Below, piece by piece: positions 5,414 through 15,663 of a stretch of 64,000 nt of DNA. Below the pieces are notes generated by a model, which was given only the letters and a program-made list of their open reading frames with translations, was not told where the DNA came from and did no database searches. This stretch comes from a virus. The DNA is taken from the IMG/VR virus record IMGVR_UViG_3300027969_000063, positions 41,517 to 105,516 of that record; one strand, given 5' to 3'. The first letter of the stretch is position 1. Every line of letters begins with the position of its first letter. Position numbers and translations under genes: made by a program.

Positions 5414-5650
5414 TTAATAGATAAAAACAACTTCCGTAATGGGGATAACATAATCTTCATCGGCTACCTTAACCGCTTTATTCCAATTCACCAGTAACTC
5501 ATCACCAATCTGTACTTCATCAACTTTAGGACCAAGAGCAACAACTTTTGCACGGTCTGGTGCTTCTGTGTACTTTAGAATGATACCTGATGCCGTCTGT
5601 TTCTCTGCGGCGATTCTTGTCACAATGATATTATTTTTTAATGGTTGCAT
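5414..5650 (-). CDS. groES: GroES-like co-chaperonin
   Basis: MQPLKNNIIV...TASGII...AKVVALGP..VQIGD motifs. Confidence 0.9.
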   Translation of the reverse strand: MQPLKNNIIVTRIAAEKQTASGIILKYTEAPDRAKVVALGPKVDEVQIGDELLVNWNKAVKVADEDYVIPITEVVFIY

Positions 5651-5808
5651 AATTTTCTTTCCGCAATAGCTCTTTGAATTTTGTTGATATGTTTTTTACG
5701 AGCACCTTCAAGTAGTTTCTCTAACTGTTCAATATTCAACGGACCTAATCTCTGTTTACCATTTTTGGTCAACATTGGATTTTTCTTTTTAGATTTTGCA
5801 ACAGCCAT
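5638..5808 (-). CDS. 56-aa basic hypothetical protein
   Basis: MAVAKSKKKNPMLTKNGKQRLGPLN...; AAGG ribosome-binding site. Confidence 0.55.
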   Translation of the reverse strand: MAVAKSKKKNPMLTKNGKQRLGPLNIEQLEKLLEGARKKHINKIQRAIAERKLCNH

Positions 5809-5825
5809 AATATACCTTTTAAAAG

Positions 5826-5899
5826 TGGAGCGGGATATTGGAATCGAACCAATAACGAGAGGTTGGAAACCTCTAGTTTTACCATTAAACTAATCCCGC
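5826..5899 (-). tRNA. tRNA-Gly(TCC)
   Basis: GCGGGAT acceptor stem, D loop, TTCCAA anticodon loop, GGTTCGATTCC T arm, encoded TCCA end. Confidence 0.95.
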
Positions 5900-5900
5900 A

Positions 5901-5962
5901 TGGACTACATTAGCCACAGTTTCTATGTTTGCTACCGATAACTCGGTTCGTCTAATGCAGTT
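5901..5962 (-). ncRNA. Small three-way-junction RNA ending in CCA
   Basis: ACTGCATTAG/CTAATGTAGT closing stem, ACCGA/TCGGT and CATAG/CTGTG hairpins, 3' CCA one base before tRNA-Gly. Confidence 0.55.
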
Positions 5963-5967
5963 TAAAC

Positions 5968-6034
5968 TGGAGCGGTGGTCTGCTATGCTCAGATAATATA
6001 AGAGGGTATCTCACATCGTACTATTACACACCGC
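5968..6034 (-). ncRNA. Non-canonical tRNA-Gly-like RNA (67 nt)
   Basis: GCGGTG/CACCGC acceptor stem + TCCA, mini D arm, extended anticodon stem around ACC, T-like arm lacking TTC. Confidence 0.7.
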
Positions 6035-6037
6035 ATA

Positions 6038-6157
6038 TTACTTTTCTTTATCTTTTCTTGCCTTACCTTTTGCTTCAATTCTGGCAAGTAAATCTAATAA
6101 TTCTTTTTTAGTTAACATTCTACCCCAAGAAGGAGTGTTATTTGCTTTTTCTGTCAT
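6038..6157 (-). CDS. 39-aa hypothetical protein
   Basis: MTEKANNTPSWGRMLTKKELLDLL...; follows a sigma70-like promoter. Confidence 0.45.
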   Translation of the reverse strand: MTEKANNTPSWGRMLTKKELLDLLARIEAKGKARKDKEK

Positions 6158-6164
6158 ATGTAAC

Positions 6165-6194
6165 ATGATATCATTACTTATACATCATTGTCAA
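6165..6194 (-). promoter_or_regulatory. Sigma70-type promoter for the RNA cluster
   Basis: TTGACA-N18-TATCAT. Confidence 0.6.
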
Positions 6195-6359
6195 ATGGTT
6201 ATAGCAAAATATACCAAAATAAACTTTACTATAACCACTCTTCTTAGACTTCTCTAAACGCCTTACTGCTTTGTTACTTTTACGATGAACTCCAGCCTTA
6301 CGAAACAATGCCAACTTGACAAGATAGTTTCGTGGTTGAGGAGTAGTTTTCTTTTTCAT
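6174..6359 (-). CDS. Small basic hypothetical protein
   Basis: AGGAG ribosome-binding site; PRN...RKAGVH motif. Confidence 0.6.
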   Translation of the reverse strand: MKKKTTPQPRNYLVKLALFRKAGVHRKSNKAVRRLEKSKKSGYSKVYFGIFCYNHLTMMYK

Positions 6360-6390
6360 GATACTCTCCTGTTGATAATACTTTATAAAC

Positions 6391-6903
6391 TTATTGTGGG
6401 GGTTTCCAACCTAGAGATTCTGGAACAATCTGACTGTCCGGATCTTGAATGCCAAAGAATACTTCCCACAATTTCTCTTTTATTGCGAACTTACTAAACA
6501 AACCAACTTCTGTTCCAAATGCTTCTATTTCCCAAGGCTGAACCCAATAATCCATACTATCAGAATCAACCTTCTTTCCTTTCCAACGAGTTAATGTTTC
6601 GTTGGTTTCATTATAAGCATATTGCTTAATGTGTGTCATTTCGTGTGCCAAGGTTTTTAATATCTCAGCTGCACCAATTCCAGGATGAAGTTCAATTTGA
6701 AACTCTCTCGCCTTACGACTTTCATTGTACTCTAAAATTTCAGCGTAACCATAGGCCTCAATCTTAGGATTAAATCTAATCCGTAGATAGATATTTTCTC
6801 TTAACTTTGGTGATATAAGTTGTTCAGCATAAAATACAGCAGCTCGTTTTACATACGGCCTGAAGTGCTTTTTATCGGGACAACCAACTATACTTAGCTG
6901 CAT
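6391..6903 (-). CDS. HExxH zinc metallopeptidase-like protein
   Basis: LAHEMTHIKQ plus downstream YWVQPWEIEA. Confidence 0.75.
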   Translation of the reverse strand: MQLSIVGCPDKKHFRPYVKRAAVFYAEQLISPKLRENIYLRIRFNPKIEAYGYAEILEYNESRKAREFQIELHPGIGAAEILKTLAHEMTHIKQYAYNETNETLTRWKGKKVDSDSMDYWVQPWEIEAFGTEVGLFSKFAIKEKLWEVFFGIQDPDSQIVPESLGWKPPQ

Positions 6904-11248: not shown

Positions 11249-11857
11249 TTATTCAAAAATACAATTAATAATCAAGCGATACTTCTTGTCCGTTGGTATG
11301 TTACCGGAATGTATCTGGTTAGAATCAAATATGATAGCACGACCTTTAACTGCTTCTATCCTTTGTTGTATAGTTAACTCTTCTTTAATAGGCACTCCAT
11401 TATACTTCTCATTATATAAAATGGTTTCACCGTCAGAATTGTTTACATAGTACAACAATGTTTTTCTATTTCCAATATAACCTGTTGAATCATATGAAGA
11501 TTCATCACCATCATCCGTATGTGGTCTTTGTAGTTTTACTCCGACCTGAGGCATTAATAAATTAGCTTTGATTCTTGATGCAGATTTTATCTTACCAAAT
11601 TGATTCTCATAACAAGCAATCAATGGTGCAATATAGTGCAGGTGTGCTGATTTGATTTTATTGTTTTCAATAAACGTATGTCGGAATTGAATATGTTCAG
11701 CCGTTGGTTGATTTGTAAAAAACAAATCTTCTAACTCCGTACTACTACTCACCGAATGTTTATGGAACGACCAAGCGATATCTTCACCACCCATTAATTT
11801 ATAAATTGAATCTATATAAACTTCTGGTAAGAAGTTATCAATAATGATTGGTTCCAT
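11249..11857 (-). CDS. 2OG-Fe(II) oxygenase
   Basis: IIIDNFL, PHTD, LYYVNNSDG, IFDS..H, R.IIN. Confidence 0.85.
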   Translation of the reverse strand: MEPIIIDNFLPEVYIDSIYKLMGGEDIAWSFHKHSVSSSTELEDLFFTNQPTAEHIQFRHTFIENNKIKSAHLHYIAPLIACYENQFGKIKSASRIKANLLMPQVGVKLQRPHTDDGDESSYDSTGYIGNRKTLLYYVNNSDGETILYNEKYNGVPIKEELTIQQRIEAVKGRAIIFDSNQIHSGNIPTDKKYRLIINCIFE

Positions 11858-12753: not shown

Positions 12754-13176
12754 TTACTGCTCTTTCGAATACATTATATCATGTTCATACAGAAACATCA
12801 AGCAGCACATGGCGTGTGCCAAGTGATGTAAACCGGATTCAGGATCAAACTTCTCTCCTTCTTTCCAAGCCCATGTATGCCGTTGCATTGCATCAAAGTA
12901 CCTACGCTTTGCTTCTGGTACATGGATCCAATTATCTCTTTCATACTTCTGAGCACCAAAAGTTAAAACTTCTGTAAGGGCTTTTAGCCCGTGAGGGGGA
13001 ACTAAACCATATTCTAATTTACCACCATCAAATTTACGGCCAATATTTGTATTAAAAGCATCTTCATAACCTGGATGATAAGGTGCTTCTTCAACTAGTT
13101 TGTTACTTGTAGATTCAAAAAGCTTTGTTCCATAAGTTATTTCTTTACCTTTAACACCATACTTTTTTGTTCCCAT
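12754..13176 (-). CDS. DUF5664 / dATP-dGTP diphosphohydrolase-domain protein
   Basis: GRKFDGGK, VLTFGAQKY..NW, DAMQRH..AW, DPESGLHHLAHA. Confidence 0.85.
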   Translation of the reverse strand: MGTKKYGVKGKEITYGTKLFESTSNKLVEEAPYHPGYEDAFNTNIGRKFDGGKLEYGLVPPHGLKALTEVLTFGAQKYERDNWIHVPEAKRRYFDAMQRHTWAWKEGEKFDPESGLHHLAHAMCCLMFLYEHDIMYSKEQ

Positions 13177-14403: not shown

Positions 14404-15663
14404 TTATCGACCAACTTGTGGTAAATATTTCGCTTTGGTATCTTCCCATGACAGGTAAATAAGGTCGTCATAGAAAAGAGTTTCGTAGGATACCGTATTC
14501 TTTTTCTGTAATTGCCGAATACGGCCTTTGGCATACTTTGTTTTCCAAATAGTTGCCAATGCTTGTTCACTGGTATCGAATGATTTTACCAATGCCTCAT
14601 CTGTAATTTCTTTACGGAGAAATTCATTGGTATTATTATAGAGCGGACTAAAATAGATACCACGTTGGTGTTCGGTACGAATCAATTCTTTTGGTATACC
14701 AAGTTTAGAATAAGCAAAGTTCAATGAACGATTCTTATGATCACGCTTGAGTGGAAGTCCTTGTGTGTTCTTGGCTTCCCACCATTCAAAATATTTACGA
14801 GTATGGTTTTCTTTAATCCAATCGAATACTAATTTTTTAGTCGATCTACTTGGTTCGAAAGCCACAGAACCAGAAGAAAAACCCATAGGAGTCCAATGGT
14901 CAAGACCATCATACTGTGAGAGGCCTCCGGTTTTTGTTTTTCCATATAGTGATGTTGTAGTAACGCCGACAAGAGTGTCTCCATATTGCCTCTTCCAATC
15001 TGCTTGAACTGTATCAGATAAACACATCAATGCCAATAATTTACCACCCATGTAATTAAAACCAAGTGGTTGTAACGGAACGATGGTGGATCCAATCGCT
15101 GTATGATTAATCATATGTTGTTGTGTCTTAACATCTCTCGACCATCCGATTGCATTATCTCTCGGAGTCAAGTCCAGGAAGTCTGAGGAGATACAAATAA
15201 CACCAAGGTATTTACCTGTTACTTCATCTGTCAAAACATAGAATAAATTACGACCAATGTTGGAATTGTTTTTCATTGTGGATGAAAATGTACGAATGGC
15301 ATTCCACTTTTCGGCATCAGGACCATTTGAAAGAACCATAACAGGTTTCAATTTCTCATAATCATCAGGTTGTGTTGGCATCCAGAAATTTGATTTCATT
15401 TTATCAACCAATTTCTTTTGTTCAGGATCAACCATCTGTGTTTCTTGGCCAAACAATGTAGATACTTCTTGAACTGGATATCTCTCTTTTACTTCACACC
15501 ACTTTTGATATAAGGTATATTCACGAACATCCATTTGAGAAGCATAAGTTAAGTCCTTGATGAGGACTTCTTTCATGTTACCTTCATCGATGTGTTCAAA
15601 GATAGTGTTCTTTTCAGACCACTCTTTCCATTGTTTTTCTACATACTCAATTGGTGTTGCCAT
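14404..15663 (-). CDS. DUF4338 / DruA-like protein (putative GNAT/Mom-like fold)
   Basis: GRNLFY..D..TGKYLGVI, IVPLQPLG..GGKLLA, W..QYG, TTTSLYG, SQY..L..W..MG.SSG. Confidence 0.7.
   Translation of the reverse strand: MATPIEYVEKQWKEWSEKNTIFEHIDEGNMKEVLIKDLTYASQMDVREYTLYQKWCEVKERYPVQEVSTLFGQETQMVDPEQKKLVDKMKSNFWMPTQPDDYEKLKPVMVLSNGPDAEKWNAIRTFSSTMKNNSNIGRNLFYVLTDEVTGKYLGVICISSDFLDLTPRDNAIGWSRDVKTQQHMINHTAIGSTIVPLQPLGFNYMGGKLLALMCLSDTVQADWKRQYGDTLVGVTTTSLYGKTKTGGLSQYDGLDHWTPMGFSSGSVAFEPSRSTKKLVFDWIKENHTRKYFEWWEAKNTQGLPLKRDHKNRSLNFAYSKLGIPKELIRTEHQRGIYFSPLYNNTNEFLRKEITDEALVKSFDTSEQALATIWKTKYAKGRIRQLQKKNTVSYETLFYDDLIYLSWEDTKAKYLPQVGR

What the first reader, a model, noticed from the sequence alone, without database searches (positions are those of the whole stretch)
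5968..6034. Non-canonical tRNA-Gly-like RNA: a possible non-ribosomal glycyl donor
Seen: GCGGUG/CACCGC-U-CCA acceptor, a 3-bp D arm without GG, a 7-8 bp anticodon stem around AU-ACC-CU, and a T-like loop AGCAUAG without UUC. Established: G1-C72, C2-G71, G3-C70, U73, C35 and C36 are bacterial GlyRS identity elements, and all appear to be present. Staphylococcal non-proteinogenic tRNA-Gly species lose D/T-loop consensus features. All stems remain paired, which argues against simple decay. Inference: the RNA is chargeable but excluded from the ribosome, or acts as a decoy for anticodon nucleases.
Basis: partly seen in the sequence, partly recalled or inferred. Interest (0 to 1): 0.75.

Follow-up and report, generated by a model that had tools for sequence, protein, structure and literature searches.

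The report
Phage mini glycine tRNA, probably non-decoding
An uncultured freshwater T4-like phage carries a conserved, shrunken 67-base derivative of glycine tRNA that tRNA finders miss; it keeps what the glycine-charging enzyme reads but has lost marks of ribosomal tRNAs, so it probably carries glycine for something other than protein synthesis, perhaps a phage GNAT-fold enzyme.

Summary
Window 6034..5968 (minus strand) encodes a 67-nt cloverleaf RNA ending in U-CCA. ARAGORN and the Rfam tRNA model both miss it.

It is a real, selected RNA. Across 53 distinct homologues in related IMG/VR phage contigs, 99.1% of pair cells are paired. Eleven of 22 pairs show compensatory changes, spread over all four stems. 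Most copies have their own sigma-70-type promoter ending 8-9 nt upstream.

G1-C72, C2-G71, G3-C70, U73, CCA, C35 and C36 are invariant. Position 34 varies (A/U/G). Position 37 is C in 51/53, 32-38 is always a Watson-Crick pair, and the anticodon stem has 8-9 bp. A 70-nt sister form carries G33 and a UGC T-loop, as staphylococcal cell-wall tRNA-Gly does.

A complete relative has canonical tRNA-Gly(GCC) and (UCC) in a 34-tRNA cluster. Its mini-tRNA lies about 75 kb away, directly behind a DruA/DUF4338 gene. That protein models as a GNAT fold, and its top structural match, tied with other GNATs, is Mu Mom, which uses Gly-tRNA-Gly to modify DNA.

Best reading: a non-proteinogenic glycyl carrier. 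Charging and the partner enzyme are inferred, not shown. This scan reached the same reading earlier on other DNA (e1-5652883, e1-5908632).

The parts
5968..6034 (-). Mini tRNA-Gly-like RNA, type A, 67 nt. RNA position i corresponds to window coordinate 6035-i. Acceptor stem: 6034-6029 paired with 5977-5972. Discriminator U at 5971; encoded CCA at 5970-5968.
   Evidence: Sequence; fold; covariation on 53 homologues; own covariance model R1 scores it 92.6 bits.
6018..6027 (-). D arm: 3-bp stem GUA/UAC with an invariant 4-nt loop AUAG and no GG.
   Evidence: Pair 10-15 switches A-U (29 sequences) to G-C (24) with no broken cells. The loop is invariant in 53/53.
5995..6017 (-). Anticodon-like arm: 8 bp plus a closing pair (A-U in 46 sequences, G-C in 7), around U-N-C-C-C. 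As a 7-nt loop it reads AUACCCU, with 'anticodon' ACC. The invariant C35 and C36 lie at 6006 and 6005.
   Evidence: Seven of nine pairs show compensatory changes. Loop variants: AUACCCU 30, ACACCCU 7, AUUCCCU 6, GUUCCCC 5, AUACCAU 2, and others 1 each.
5979..5993 (-). T-like arm: 4-bp stem with a 7-nt loop A-G-C-A-W-A-G. G, C, A, A and G are invariant. There is no U54-U55; a C at the position of C56 is kept.
   Evidence: Pairs 42-56 and 43-55 covary (U-A / C-G / G-C; C-G / G-U / A-U).
5826..5899 (-). Canonical tRNA-Gly(UCC), 68 nt downstream on the same strand. It has the same GCGG..U-CCA acceptor end and is the likely evolutionary parent type.
   Evidence: ARAGORN; Rfam tRNA 68.6 bits. In about 30 of 86 related contexts the element lies only 1-8 nt upstream of this tRNA.
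5901..5961 (-). A 61-nt CCA-ended structured insert between the element and tRNA-Gly. It has a 10-bp closing stem and two hairpins. Essentially private to this genome.
   Evidence: MFE -18.8 kcal/mol, z = -3.3. Only one partial match in 238 related loci. A metatranscriptome contig from a relative skips it.
6165..6194 (-). Sigma-70-like promoter (TTGACA-18-TATCAT with TG) that would drive the small ORF, the element, the 61-nt RNA and tRNA-Gly in this genome.
   Evidence: Consensus scan, 11/12 matches. In relatives the promoter sits directly in front of the element.
6038..6166 (-). Small basic ORF (42 aa from the first ATG; 28 aa from an internal ATG preceded by GGGG). It ends 3 nt before the element.
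   Evidence: ORF list. Homologous C-terminal coding sequence precedes the element or type B in L048 and L184.
14404..15663 (-). DruA/DUF4338-family protein with a central GNAT fold. Candidate user of the glycyl-RNA; this link is inferred.
   Evidence: Pfam PF14236, 79 bits. AF2 model pLDDT 95. Every match is GNAT. Top is Mu Mom 8bv8: Z 9.8, rmsd 4.0, 184 aligned; Z 9.6 in the unbiased search, with FemA at rank 10. The element lies 22-64 nt behind this gene in 7 of 85 distinct contexts.

Best explanation
The element is a gene for a miniaturised, tRNA-Gly-derived RNA of 67 nt. In most relatives it is transcribed from its own early-type sigma-70 promoter. Here it is transcribed together with a small ORF and tRNA-Gly(UCC). 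Its ends are presumably trimmed to G1 and the encoded CCA by the host tRNA-processing enzymes. It most likely is glycylated by the host GlyRS, because every known bacterial GlyRS identity element is invariant. It is not built for decoding: it has a 9-bp stem with a 5-nt loop, C37, no G18G19 and no U54-U55. It would therefore act as a non-proteinogenic glycyl carrier that keeps a pool of activated glycine away from EF-Tu and the ribosome.

The best candidate consumer is the phage's conserved DruA/DUF4338 protein. Its catalytic domain is a GNAT fold most similar to Mu Mom, which transfers glycine from Gly-tRNA-Gly onto adenine in DNA.

Shown here: the structure, conservation, covariation, promoter, tRNA-Gly ancestry and gene neighbourhood. 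Inferred: charging, exclusion from translation, the partner enzyme and its target.
For: 1. The RNA is real and selected. Among 53 distinct homologues, 99.1% of cells are paired and 11/22 pairs are compensatory.
2. It has Gly identity. G1-C72, C2-G71, G3-C70, U73, CCA, C35 and C36 are invariant in type A and type B. GCGG..U73 is exclusive to tRNA-Gly among the ARAGORN tRNAs of the loci. The identity set is as listed in PMC7826273. In T4, model R1's only weak hit is tRNA-Gly.
3. The anticodon loop does not look like a decoding loop. C37 occurs in 51/53, a Watson-Crick 32-38 pair in 53/53, and C or A at 33 in 8/53. Type B has G33 in 19/19 and a T-loop UGC. UGC is the triplet that marks the staphylococcal non-proteogenic tRNA-Gly (PMC7826273).
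4. It is redundant for decoding. Copies with a UCC loop sit 1-5 nt from a canonical tRNA-Gly(UCC). The complete genome G016 has canonical Gly(GCC) and Gly(UCC) among 34 tRNAs at 82-90 kb, while the element lies at 7.9 kb.
5. It is an independent gene. A TTGACN-16/18-TAnnnT motif lies within 70 nt upstream in 56/74 type A and 29/32 type B contexts, against 1% of random 70-mers. The motif mostly ends 8-9 nt before G1. L128 and L145 also have an intrinsic terminator after the element.
6. Copy number is stable. There is exactly one copy in each of four complete genomes, and 25/26 large records have type A or B.
7. The partner lead. The element lies 22-64 nt behind the DruA-like gene in 7/85 contexts. 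The DruA-like model is a GNAT fold with Mom as top match. Mom uses Gly-tRNA-Gly (PMC13219725).
8. Short contigs from lake metatranscriptome libraries join the element's 3' part to tRNA-Gly. This is weak evidence of expression.
Against: There is no direct evidence of charging, of EF-Tu or ribosome exclusion, or of processing. The RNA evidence is contig-level only, and DNA carry-over cannot be excluded.

The loop ACC is the exact complement of GGU, which makes up 62% of Gly codons in the window's genes. A decoding role is therefore not excluded. D arm plus anticodon stem (3+8 bp) and acceptor plus T stem (6-7+4 bp) roughly preserve the arm lengths of a tRNA.

The DruA link is weak in several ways:
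- DruA-like is present in all 26 large related records, so co-occurrence carries no information.
- The seven adjacent cases may trace to one ancestral arrangement.
- The cultured pelagiphages HTVC008M and Mosig have DruA-like at 55-58% identity, but model R1 finds no match in them.
- There is no sequence-level relation between the DruA and Mom families. Mom's Z exceeds that of other GNATs by less than 1, which is a tie.
Confidence: 0.45

Rival explanations
1. It is a working, structurally compact elongator tRNA-Gly of the mitochondrial or tRNA-Pyl type. It would supplement decoding of the phage's dominant GGU codon through an A34-C35-C36 anticodon.
For: GGT makes up 62% of Gly codons in the window's genes, and ACC is its exact complement. 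Position 34 varies like a wobble base (A 41, U 11, G 1) while 35 and 36 are fixed. The element lies in tRNA clusters on the tRNA strand and has an encoded CCA like all the phage tRNAs. Its arm lengths are roughly those of a tRNA. From memory, not checked here: an engineered tRNA-Gly(ACC) reads all four Gly codons in vitro (Boren et al. 1993), and a Watson-Crick 32-38 pair occurs in some GC-rich-anticodon tRNAs.
Against: C37 occurs in 51/53 sequences. Position 33 is not always U, and it is G in all type B copies. A Watson-Crick 32-38 pair in 53/53 gives a 5-nt loop. Copies with a UCC loop coexist with a canonical tRNA-Gly(UCC) a few nt away. G016 already has Gly(GCC) and Gly(UCC) and keeps the element 75 kb from its tRNA cluster. 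The Rfam tRNA model and ARAGORN mitochondrial modes give nothing.
Confidence: 0.15
2. It is a decoy, sponge or regulator that mimics tRNA-Gly for a host protein. Candidates are a tRNA-Gly-directed nuclease, a GNAT toxin that acetylates Gly-tRNA-Gly (TacT/AtaT2 type), or GlyRS itself. It would protect the real tRNA-Gly pool or retune it during infection.
For: The acceptor end and C35/C36 are preserved while the rest is remodelled. An early-type promoter fits a counter-defence gene. Phage tRNAs are known to counter tRNA-targeting defences; reviews were found. TacT recognises Gly-tRNA-Gly (cited in PMC13219725).
Against: The loop is not a copy of any real tRNA-Gly loop and varies at positions 32, 33, 34, 37 and 38. 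This is poor mimicry for a loop-specific nuclease. A stoichiometric decoy is an inefficient answer to an enzyme. No tRNA-Gly-specific defence is known for the unknown host.
Confidence: 0.15
3. It is an uncharged tRNA-like processing or stability module. An RNase P / RNase Z 'punctuation' structure would define the 5' end of early transcripts or release the downstream tRNA-Gly or mRNA.
For: It is the first element after the promoter in most relatives. It is followed either by tRNA-Gly after 1-8 nt or by a Shine-Dalgarno sequence and ORF after about 10 nt. T4 clusters also hold co-processed stable RNAs, rnaC and rnaD, of unknown role.
Against: RNase P and Z need only the acceptor/T helix. That does not explain the invariant C35-C36 and U73, the conserved D-loop AUAG, or covariation along a 9-bp anticodon stem. 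In L128 and L145 the element is a stand-alone unit of promoter, RNA and terminator with nothing to release.
Confidence: 0.12
4. It is a decaying tRNA-Gly pseudogene, or a chance hairpin cluster.
For: No tRNA finder calls it. The single-sequence z-score is only -2.2.
Against: It is 82-100% conserved over its full length in more than 100 contigs, while the neighbouring protein drops to 63% identity. Compensatory changes occur in all four stems. It has a dedicated promoter.
Confidence: 0.01

Closest known systems
Staphylococcal non-proteogenic tRNA-Gly (S. aureus NP1-NP3; S. epidermidis Ia/Ib), which serve FmhB/FemA/FemB (PMC7826273)
   Same: Both are extra tRNA-Gly species that keep the GlyRS identity set. 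Both lose G18G19 and the U54-U55 of the T-loop. The 70-nt sister form (type B) even has the same UGC triplet. Both coexist with proteinogenic tRNA-Gly(UCC). In staphylococci this design is shown to reduce EF-Tu and ribosome binding while the RNA stays chargeable.
   Different: The staphylococcal species are full-size 7/5 cloverleaves with a normal 7-nt UCC loop. They belong to a lineage restricted to staphylococci. This RNA is phage-encoded and 67 nt long. It has a 6(+1)/4 acceptor/T helix, a 3-bp D arm, an 8-9-bp anticodon stem and the loop UNCCC. It arose independently. No Fem transferase is encoded in the 105.5-kb partial (63% complete) record that holds the window.
Phage Mu Mom with host Gly-tRNA-Gly (PMC13219725)
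   Same: Mom is a phage GNAT-fold enzyme that takes glycine from charged tRNA-Gly for a non-ribosomal purpose, hypermodification of adenine in DNA. The DruA-like protein of this phage has Mom as its top structural match.
   Different: Mu uses host tRNA-Gly isoacceptors and encodes no dedicated RNA. The DruA-like family shows no sequence relation to the Mom family PF25680. Its substrate and donor are unknown.
T4 stable RNAs species 1 and 2 (rnaC, rnaD)
   Same: They are small stable non-tRNA RNAs encoded in the tRNA cluster of a T4-type phage, ending in tRNA-like 3' parts. Their function is unknown (annotation; sequence).
   Different: They are 139 and 119 nt long and not cloverleaves of this kind. 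Model R1 does not match them.
Canonical phage tRNA-Gly(UCC) next door (window 5899..5826)
   Same: It has the same first four acceptor pairs, U73 and encoded CCA. The type B loop UGUCCAA differs from its loop UUUCCAA only at position 33. The tandem arrangement suggests origin by duplication.
   Different: The canonical gene scores 68.6 bits on RF00005, whereas the element gives no hit at E<=10.
Compact-core tRNAs (tRNA-Pyl, mammalian mitochondrial tRNA-Ser(UCN)) and irregular or allo-tRNAs from metagenomes and phages (PMC5389517)
   Same: They share short connectors, a small D loop without GG, a T loop without T-psi-C, a lengthened anticodon stem and a short variable region. The tRNA-Pyl and mt-tRNA-Ser features are from memory.
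   Different: Those tRNAs decode on ribosomes and keep U33 and a purine at 37. Their anticodon stems have 6 bp, not 8-9.

Membership tests
Canonical tRNA (Rfam RF00005 / ARAGORN) | Scores at or above the family's covariance-model gathering threshold (29 bits), or is called by ARAGORN. | tested here: not met
   No RF00005 hit at E<=10 on window 5600-6400. Types B and C are also missed. ARAGORN standard, relaxed and mitochondrial modes are all silent.
Canonical tRNA (Rfam RF00005 / ARAGORN) | 7-bp acceptor and 5-bp T stem, G18G19 in the D loop, U54-U55-C56 in the T loop. | tested here: not met
   Acceptor of 6 bp (a 7th position is a U-C mismatch) and a 4-bp T stem. D loop AUAG; T loop AGCAWAG. 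Only a C at the C56 position is kept.
Canonical tRNA (Rfam RF00005 / ARAGORN) | 7-nt anticodon loop with U33 and a purine at 37. | tested here: not met
   C37 in 51/53. Position 33 is U in 45, C in 7 and A in 1. Positions 32-38 form a Watson-Crick pair in 53/53.
Substrates of bacterial GlyRS (tRNA-Gly identity set) | G1-C72, C2-G71, G3-C70, U73, C35 and C36 present. | tested here: met
   Invariant in 53/53 type A and 19/19 type B sequences. The identity set is as listed in PMC7826273.
Substrates of bacterial GlyRS (tRNA-Gly identity set) | Actually aminoacylated with glycine. | not testable with these tools
   Needs an in vitro charging assay or an acid-urea northern blot.
Staphylococcal-type non-proteogenic tRNA-Gly | T-loop UGC or UGU instead of UUC, and no G18G19. 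| tested here: inconclusive
   Type B has UGC. The window's type A has AGC, so G55 and C56 are shared but U54 is not. Both lack GG in the D loop.
Staphylococcal-type non-proteogenic tRNA-Gly | Belongs to the staphylococcal NP lineage and serves Fem transferases. | tested here: not met
   It is phage-encoded and derives from the phage's tRNA-Gly type. FemAB (PF02388) has no match in the 105.5-kb partial (63% complete) record that holds the window. PMC7826273 states that the NP lineage is restricted to staphylococci.
Staphylococcal-type non-proteogenic tRNA-Gly | Poor binding to EF-Tu-GTP and to the ribosome. | not testable with these tools
   Inferred only, from loop and core features.
Mom family (PF25680), for the candidate partner protein 14404-15663 | Match to the Mom profile, or profile-profile homology. 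| tested here: not met
   PF25680 has no match in the own genome at E<=1. hhalign of the DruA-like alignment against the Mom alignment gives probability 0.1%.
GNAT superfamily fold, for the candidate partner protein | GNAT core fold. | tested here: met
   The model has pLDDT 95. All 50 top matches are GNATs. Mom 8bv8 is first: Z 9.8, rmsd 4.0, 184 aligned; Z 9.6, 171 aligned. Other GNATs lie within 1 Z unit, which is a tie.
DruA / DUF4338 (PF14236), for the candidate partner protein | Pfam match above the curated cut-off. | tested here: met
   79.1 bits against a cut-off of 27.

The most novel reading that the evidence does not exclude
The mini-tRNA is a dedicated glycyl-carrier RNA for the phage's DruA-family GNAT. 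That enzyme would carry out a Mom-like, aminoacyl-tRNA-dependent modification of phage DNA or of another nucleic acid or protein. This would be the first phage-encoded non-proteinogenic tRNA. It would also imply that DruA, the unexplained first gene of Druantia type I defence, is an aminoacyl-tRNA-dependent transferase.
Probability: 0.25. Interest if true: 0.9.

Novelty: new variant of a known kind. Interest (0 to 1): 0.78.

Why it matters
Dedicated non-proteinogenic tRNAs are so far essentially a staphylococcal curiosity. A phage-borne, drastically miniaturised version would show that viruses also partition an aminoacyl-tRNA pool away from translation.

It gives a compact 67-nt natural substrate for asking what GlyRS, EF-Tu, RNase P and the CCA-maturing enzymes minimally require.

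The gene-neighbourhood and fold link to a DruA/DUF4338 protein offers a testable biochemical hypothesis: aminoacyl-tRNA-dependent transfer, as in Mu Mom. DUF4338 is widespread in pelagiphages and cyanophages and is the signature gene of Druantia type I defence, whose mechanism is unknown.

The family is also invisible to ARAGORN and Rfam. Phage tRNA censuses therefore miss it.

Tried and rejected
- ARAGORN in standard, -ps80/-ps70 and three mitochondrial modes finds only the canonical tRNA-Gly.
- Rfam at gathering and at E<=10 gives no family for types A, B or C.
- blastn of the 801-bp region and of the 67-mer against 50,697 cultured-phage records gives only tRNA-Gly hits or 18-nt chance hits.
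- Model R1 finds nothing at E<=1 in Pelagibacter phages Mosig EXVC030M and HTVC008M. It finds nothing at T4 rnaC or rnaD.
- Co-occurrence of the element with DruA-like is uninformative, because DruA-like is in 26/26 large records.
- There is no sequence relation between DruA and Mom: single sequence, profile-profile, the PDB by phmmer, and PF25680 in the own genome.
- FemAB has no match in the own genome.
- psbA (PF00124) is absent from four complete relatives, so a cyanobacterial host is not indicated. The host remains unknown.
- Metatranscriptome contigs cover only 5968-6011 of the element at depth 2, and they come from relatives. Parts without cover say nothing.
- The 61-nt neighbouring RNA has no homologues for a covariation test.
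- Full-text searches turned up no paper describing this RNA.

Full report
**What is there**

The window is part of a 105.5-kb IMG/VR viral contig. It is a T4-like myovirus with gp43 DNA polymerase, gp46/47, gp44/62/45, regA and Hsp20, all on the minus strand. The reverse complement of 5968-6034 is a 67-nt RNA:

GCGGUG-U-GUA-AUAG-UAC-GAUGUGAGA-UACCC-UCUUAUAUU-A-UCUG-AGCAUAG-CAGA-C-CACCGC-U-CCA.

ARAGORN and Rfam see only the canonical tRNA-Gly(UCC) at 5899..5826, 68 nt downstream. Relaxed and mitochondrial ARAGORN modes also miss the element. No ORF of 40 aa or more overlaps it.

**Is it more than chance?**

Yes. I fetched relatives through the neighbouring 170-aa ORF and through a degenerate pattern of the element's 5' half. 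This gave 110 stretches with the element and 53 distinct full-length sequences.

- 99.1% of pair cells are standard pairs. Column shuffles give 88.6%, and slid partners give 29-65%.
- Eleven of 22 pairs show changes on both sides, in all four helices.
- Examples are U5-A59 to A-U, A10-U15 to G-C (29 against 24 sequences), seven of nine anticodon-stem pairs, and two of four T-stem pairs.
- RNAalifold independently predicts the same structure.

The element stays 82-100% identical while the flanking protein falls to 63% identity. It is a selected structured RNA, not a decaying pseudogene.

**Anatomy and what is conserved**

- Invariant in 53/53: G1-C, C2-G, G3-C and G4-C of the acceptor stem; U at the discriminator position; the encoded CCA; the D-loop AUAG; G, C, A, A and G of the T-loop AGCAWAG; the single linker A41; and the two loop cytosines at the positions of C35 and C36.
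- Position 34 varies: A 41, U 11, G 1.
- Position 37 is C in 51/53.
- Position 33 is U in 45, C in 7 and A in 1.
- The closing pair, equivalent to 32-38, is A-U in 46 and G-C in 7 and is never broken.

The arm is therefore really a 9-bp stem with the pentaloop U-N-C-C-C. Among all canonical tRNAs that ARAGORN finds in the related loci, a GCGG acceptor start combined with U73 occurs only in tRNA-Gly. The invariant positions are exactly the bacterial GlyRS identity set as listed in PMC7826273.

**Relatives of the element**

My covariance model R1 also detects a 70-nt sister form, type B, at about 30 bits. Its sequence is:

GCGGU(C)GG-GGU-AUAGA-ACC-A-GAGUAGGU-GUCCA-ACCUACUC-A-UCUAG-UGCGAAU-CUAGA-CCACCGC-U-CCA.

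- ARAGORN and Rfam miss it too.
- It has 19 distinct sequences, 100% paired cells and five compensatory pairs.
- It occupies the same genomic slot behind the same promoter cassette, and in L041 and L150 it stands in tandem with type A.
- It is closer to a normal tRNA, with a 7/5 acceptor/T helix.
- Its loop UGUCCAA equals the canonical phage tRNA-Gly(UCC) loop UUUCCAA except for G at position 33.
- Its T loop has UGC instead of UUC. UGC is the triplet that marks the staphylococcal non-proteogenic tRNA-Gly (PMC7826273).

A hybrid form, type C (L184:2135-2204), combines the type A loop with a type B T arm. In T4, model R1's only weak hit is tRNA-Gly, not rnaC or rnaD. The family thus descends from tRNA-Gly(UCC). 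It has been progressively compacted while keeping the charging determinants.

**Expression signals**

A TTGACN-16/18-TAnnnT motif lies within 70 nt upstream in 56 of 74 distinct type A contexts and 29 of 32 type B contexts. Only 1% of random 70-mers from the same loci have it. The -10 box mostly ends 8-9 nt before G1. The RNA is therefore the first thing transcribed from a dedicated early-type promoter.

Downstream lies one of three things: tRNA-Gly(UCC) after 1-8 nt (about 30 of 86 contexts), another tRNA, or a Shine-Dalgarno sequence plus ORF. In L128 and L145 an intrinsic terminator follows directly.

The window's own copy belongs to the minority without a promoter immediately upstream. Here a promoter at 6194..6165 and a small basic ORF (6166..6038) precede the element. 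A 61-nt CCA-ended structured insert separates it from tRNA-Gly.

Short contigs of 91 and 131 nt from a lake-water metatranscriptome library join the 3' part of a relative's element to tRNA-Gly. This is consistent with expression, but it is contig-level evidence at depth 2 and DNA carry-over cannot be excluded.

**Decoder or not?**

In favour of decoding:
- ACC is the exact complement of GGU, which is 62% of the Gly codons in 16 window genes.
- The summed stem lengths roughly preserve the two arms of a tRNA.

Against decoding:
- The loop features listed above: C37, a paired 32-38, and a variable or G33.
- The absence of G18G19 and U54-U55.
- Redundancy. Copies whose loop reads UCC lie 1-5 nt from a canonical tRNA-Gly(UCC).
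- The complete 168.9-kb relative G016 has 34 tRNAs at 82-90 kb, including canonical Gly(GCC) and Gly(UCC). Its single mini-tRNA sits at 7.9 kb, outside the cluster.

Each of four complete genomes has exactly one copy. I therefore rate decoding at about 0.15.

**A candidate partner**

An earlier first-stage note on this genome (e1-6025486 / e1-6025497) suggested looking at the DUF4338 protein, so I tested it.

- The protein at 14404-15663 matches Pfam DruA at 79 bits.
- With a 63-sequence alignment it folds at pLDDT 95.
- All structural matches are GNAT-fold acyltransferases.
- In both the Foldseek-seeded and the unbiased VIA-align searches the top match is Mom of phage Mu (8bv8). The scores are Z 9.8, rmsd 4.0, 184 of 222 residues aligned, and Z 9.6 with 171 aligned.
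- S. aureus FemA is at rank 10.
- Other GNATs lie within one Z unit, so by Z this is a tie. Mom, however, aligns over more residues than most of them.

Mom was recently shown to transfer glycine from Gly-tRNA-Gly to adenine in dsDNA (PMC13219725).

In 7 of 85 distinct contexts the mini-tRNA lies 22-64 nt downstream of the DruA-like gene, with its own promoter. These are L122, L128, L129, L145, L164, L181 and L182, and they include the complete genome G016.

The caveats are these:
- DruA-like is present in all 26 large related records, so co-occurrence carries no information.
- The adjacent cases share a divergent DruA clade and may reflect one ancestral arrangement.
- The cultured pelagiphages Mosig and HTVC008M have DruA-like at 55-58% identity, but model R1 finds no match in them.
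- There is no sequence-level DruA-Mom relation.
- One GenBank record (S-SCSM2R) labels its homologue 'methylcarbamoylase mom'. That is an annotator's label, not evidence.

**Verdict**

The interpretation 'chargeable but kept out of the ribosome' is the best-supported reading but remains inferred. The anticodon-nuclease decoy variant is less likely, because the loop is neither a copy of a real tRNA-Gly loop nor constant.

The closest known analogue is the staphylococcal non-proteogenic tRNA-Gly. The element works like it but is not a member of that lineage, and it is far more reduced.

I found no description of this RNA in Rfam or in the searchable literature. Fremin et al. (PMC10690425) list unnamed tRNA-like candidates from IMG/VR that could include it. 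I could not check this.

The same family was met earlier in this scan on other DNA, and two follow-up reports reached the same reading (e1-5652883, e1-5908632). Those are not independent evidence. I re-derived each point here.

Noticed in passing
window 5901-5961 (-): A 61-nt RNA-like insert ends in CCA one base before tRNA-Gly. It has a 10-bp closing stem and two hairpins (MFE -18.8 kcal/mol, z = -3.3). It is essentially private to this genome: only one partial match (L149) among 238 related loci. A relative's metatranscriptome contig skips it. Three consecutive units here end in UCCA.
   Followed up: partly
L079:3556-3625 and 18 other distinct sequences (alignment A4): A 70-nt sister form, type B, of the mini tRNA-Gly. 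It has G33, loop UGUCCAA, T-loop UGC(G/A)AAU, a 7-bp acceptor stem with a bulged C6 and an 8-bp anticodon stem. ARAGORN and Rfam miss it. It lies in the same slot and behind the same promoter as type A, and it is tandem with type A in L041 and L150.
   Followed up: yes
L184:2135-2204: Hybrid type C: the type A loop (AUACCCU) combined with a type B-like 5-bp T arm (loop UGCAAAC). The same record also has a type A copy about 380 nt downstream.
   Followed up: partly
window 14404-15663 (-): A DruA/DUF4338 protein conserved in all 26 large related records, with a paralogue at 33-38% identity elsewhere in each genome. It has a GNAT fold with Mu Mom as the top structural match. Its closest cultured homologues are in Pelagibacter phages Mosig and HTVC008M. 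The window's phage thus looks like a freshwater relative of the pelagimyophages, and no psbA is found in four complete relatives.
   Followed up: partly
relatives, e.g. L014:4387-4443, L038, L091 (upstream of the element): A conserved cassette of about 56 nt follows the CCA of the preceding tRNA: AGTATACCA..TTGAC(A/T)-17-TATAGT-ATTGAATAT. It resembles the mobile early-promoter cassettes described for T4-type phages and may explain how the element moves between loci.
   Followed up: partly
window 6038-6166 (-): A small basic ORF ends 3 nt before the element. The -10 box of the promoter at 6194..6165 abuts its first ATG, so an internal ATG (28 aa, preceded by GGGG) may be the real start. Homologous C-terminal sequence (..LLDLLAR..KKEK*) precedes the element or type B in L048 and L184.
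   Followed up: no
L096 (minus strand, about position 2418 of the reverse complement): A truncated copy. The first 22 nt of the element (GCGGAGAGTAATAGTACGATAA) run into unrelated sequence. It is likely a recombination junction or a decayed copy.
   Followed up: no
L122:4007-4073: This element is 100% identical to the window's copy, although the adjacent DruA-like gene is only 55% identical to the window's. This suggests recent exchange of the RNA cassette between divergent phages.
   Followed up: no
window 12754-13176 (-) and 11249-11857 (-): A MazZ/MazG-like dATP/dGTP diphosphohydrolase (PF18909), a 2OG-Fe(II) oxygenase and a GT-A-like protein lie between DruA-like and the clamp-loader genes. 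I did not examine whether they form a DNA-modification module.
   Followed up: no
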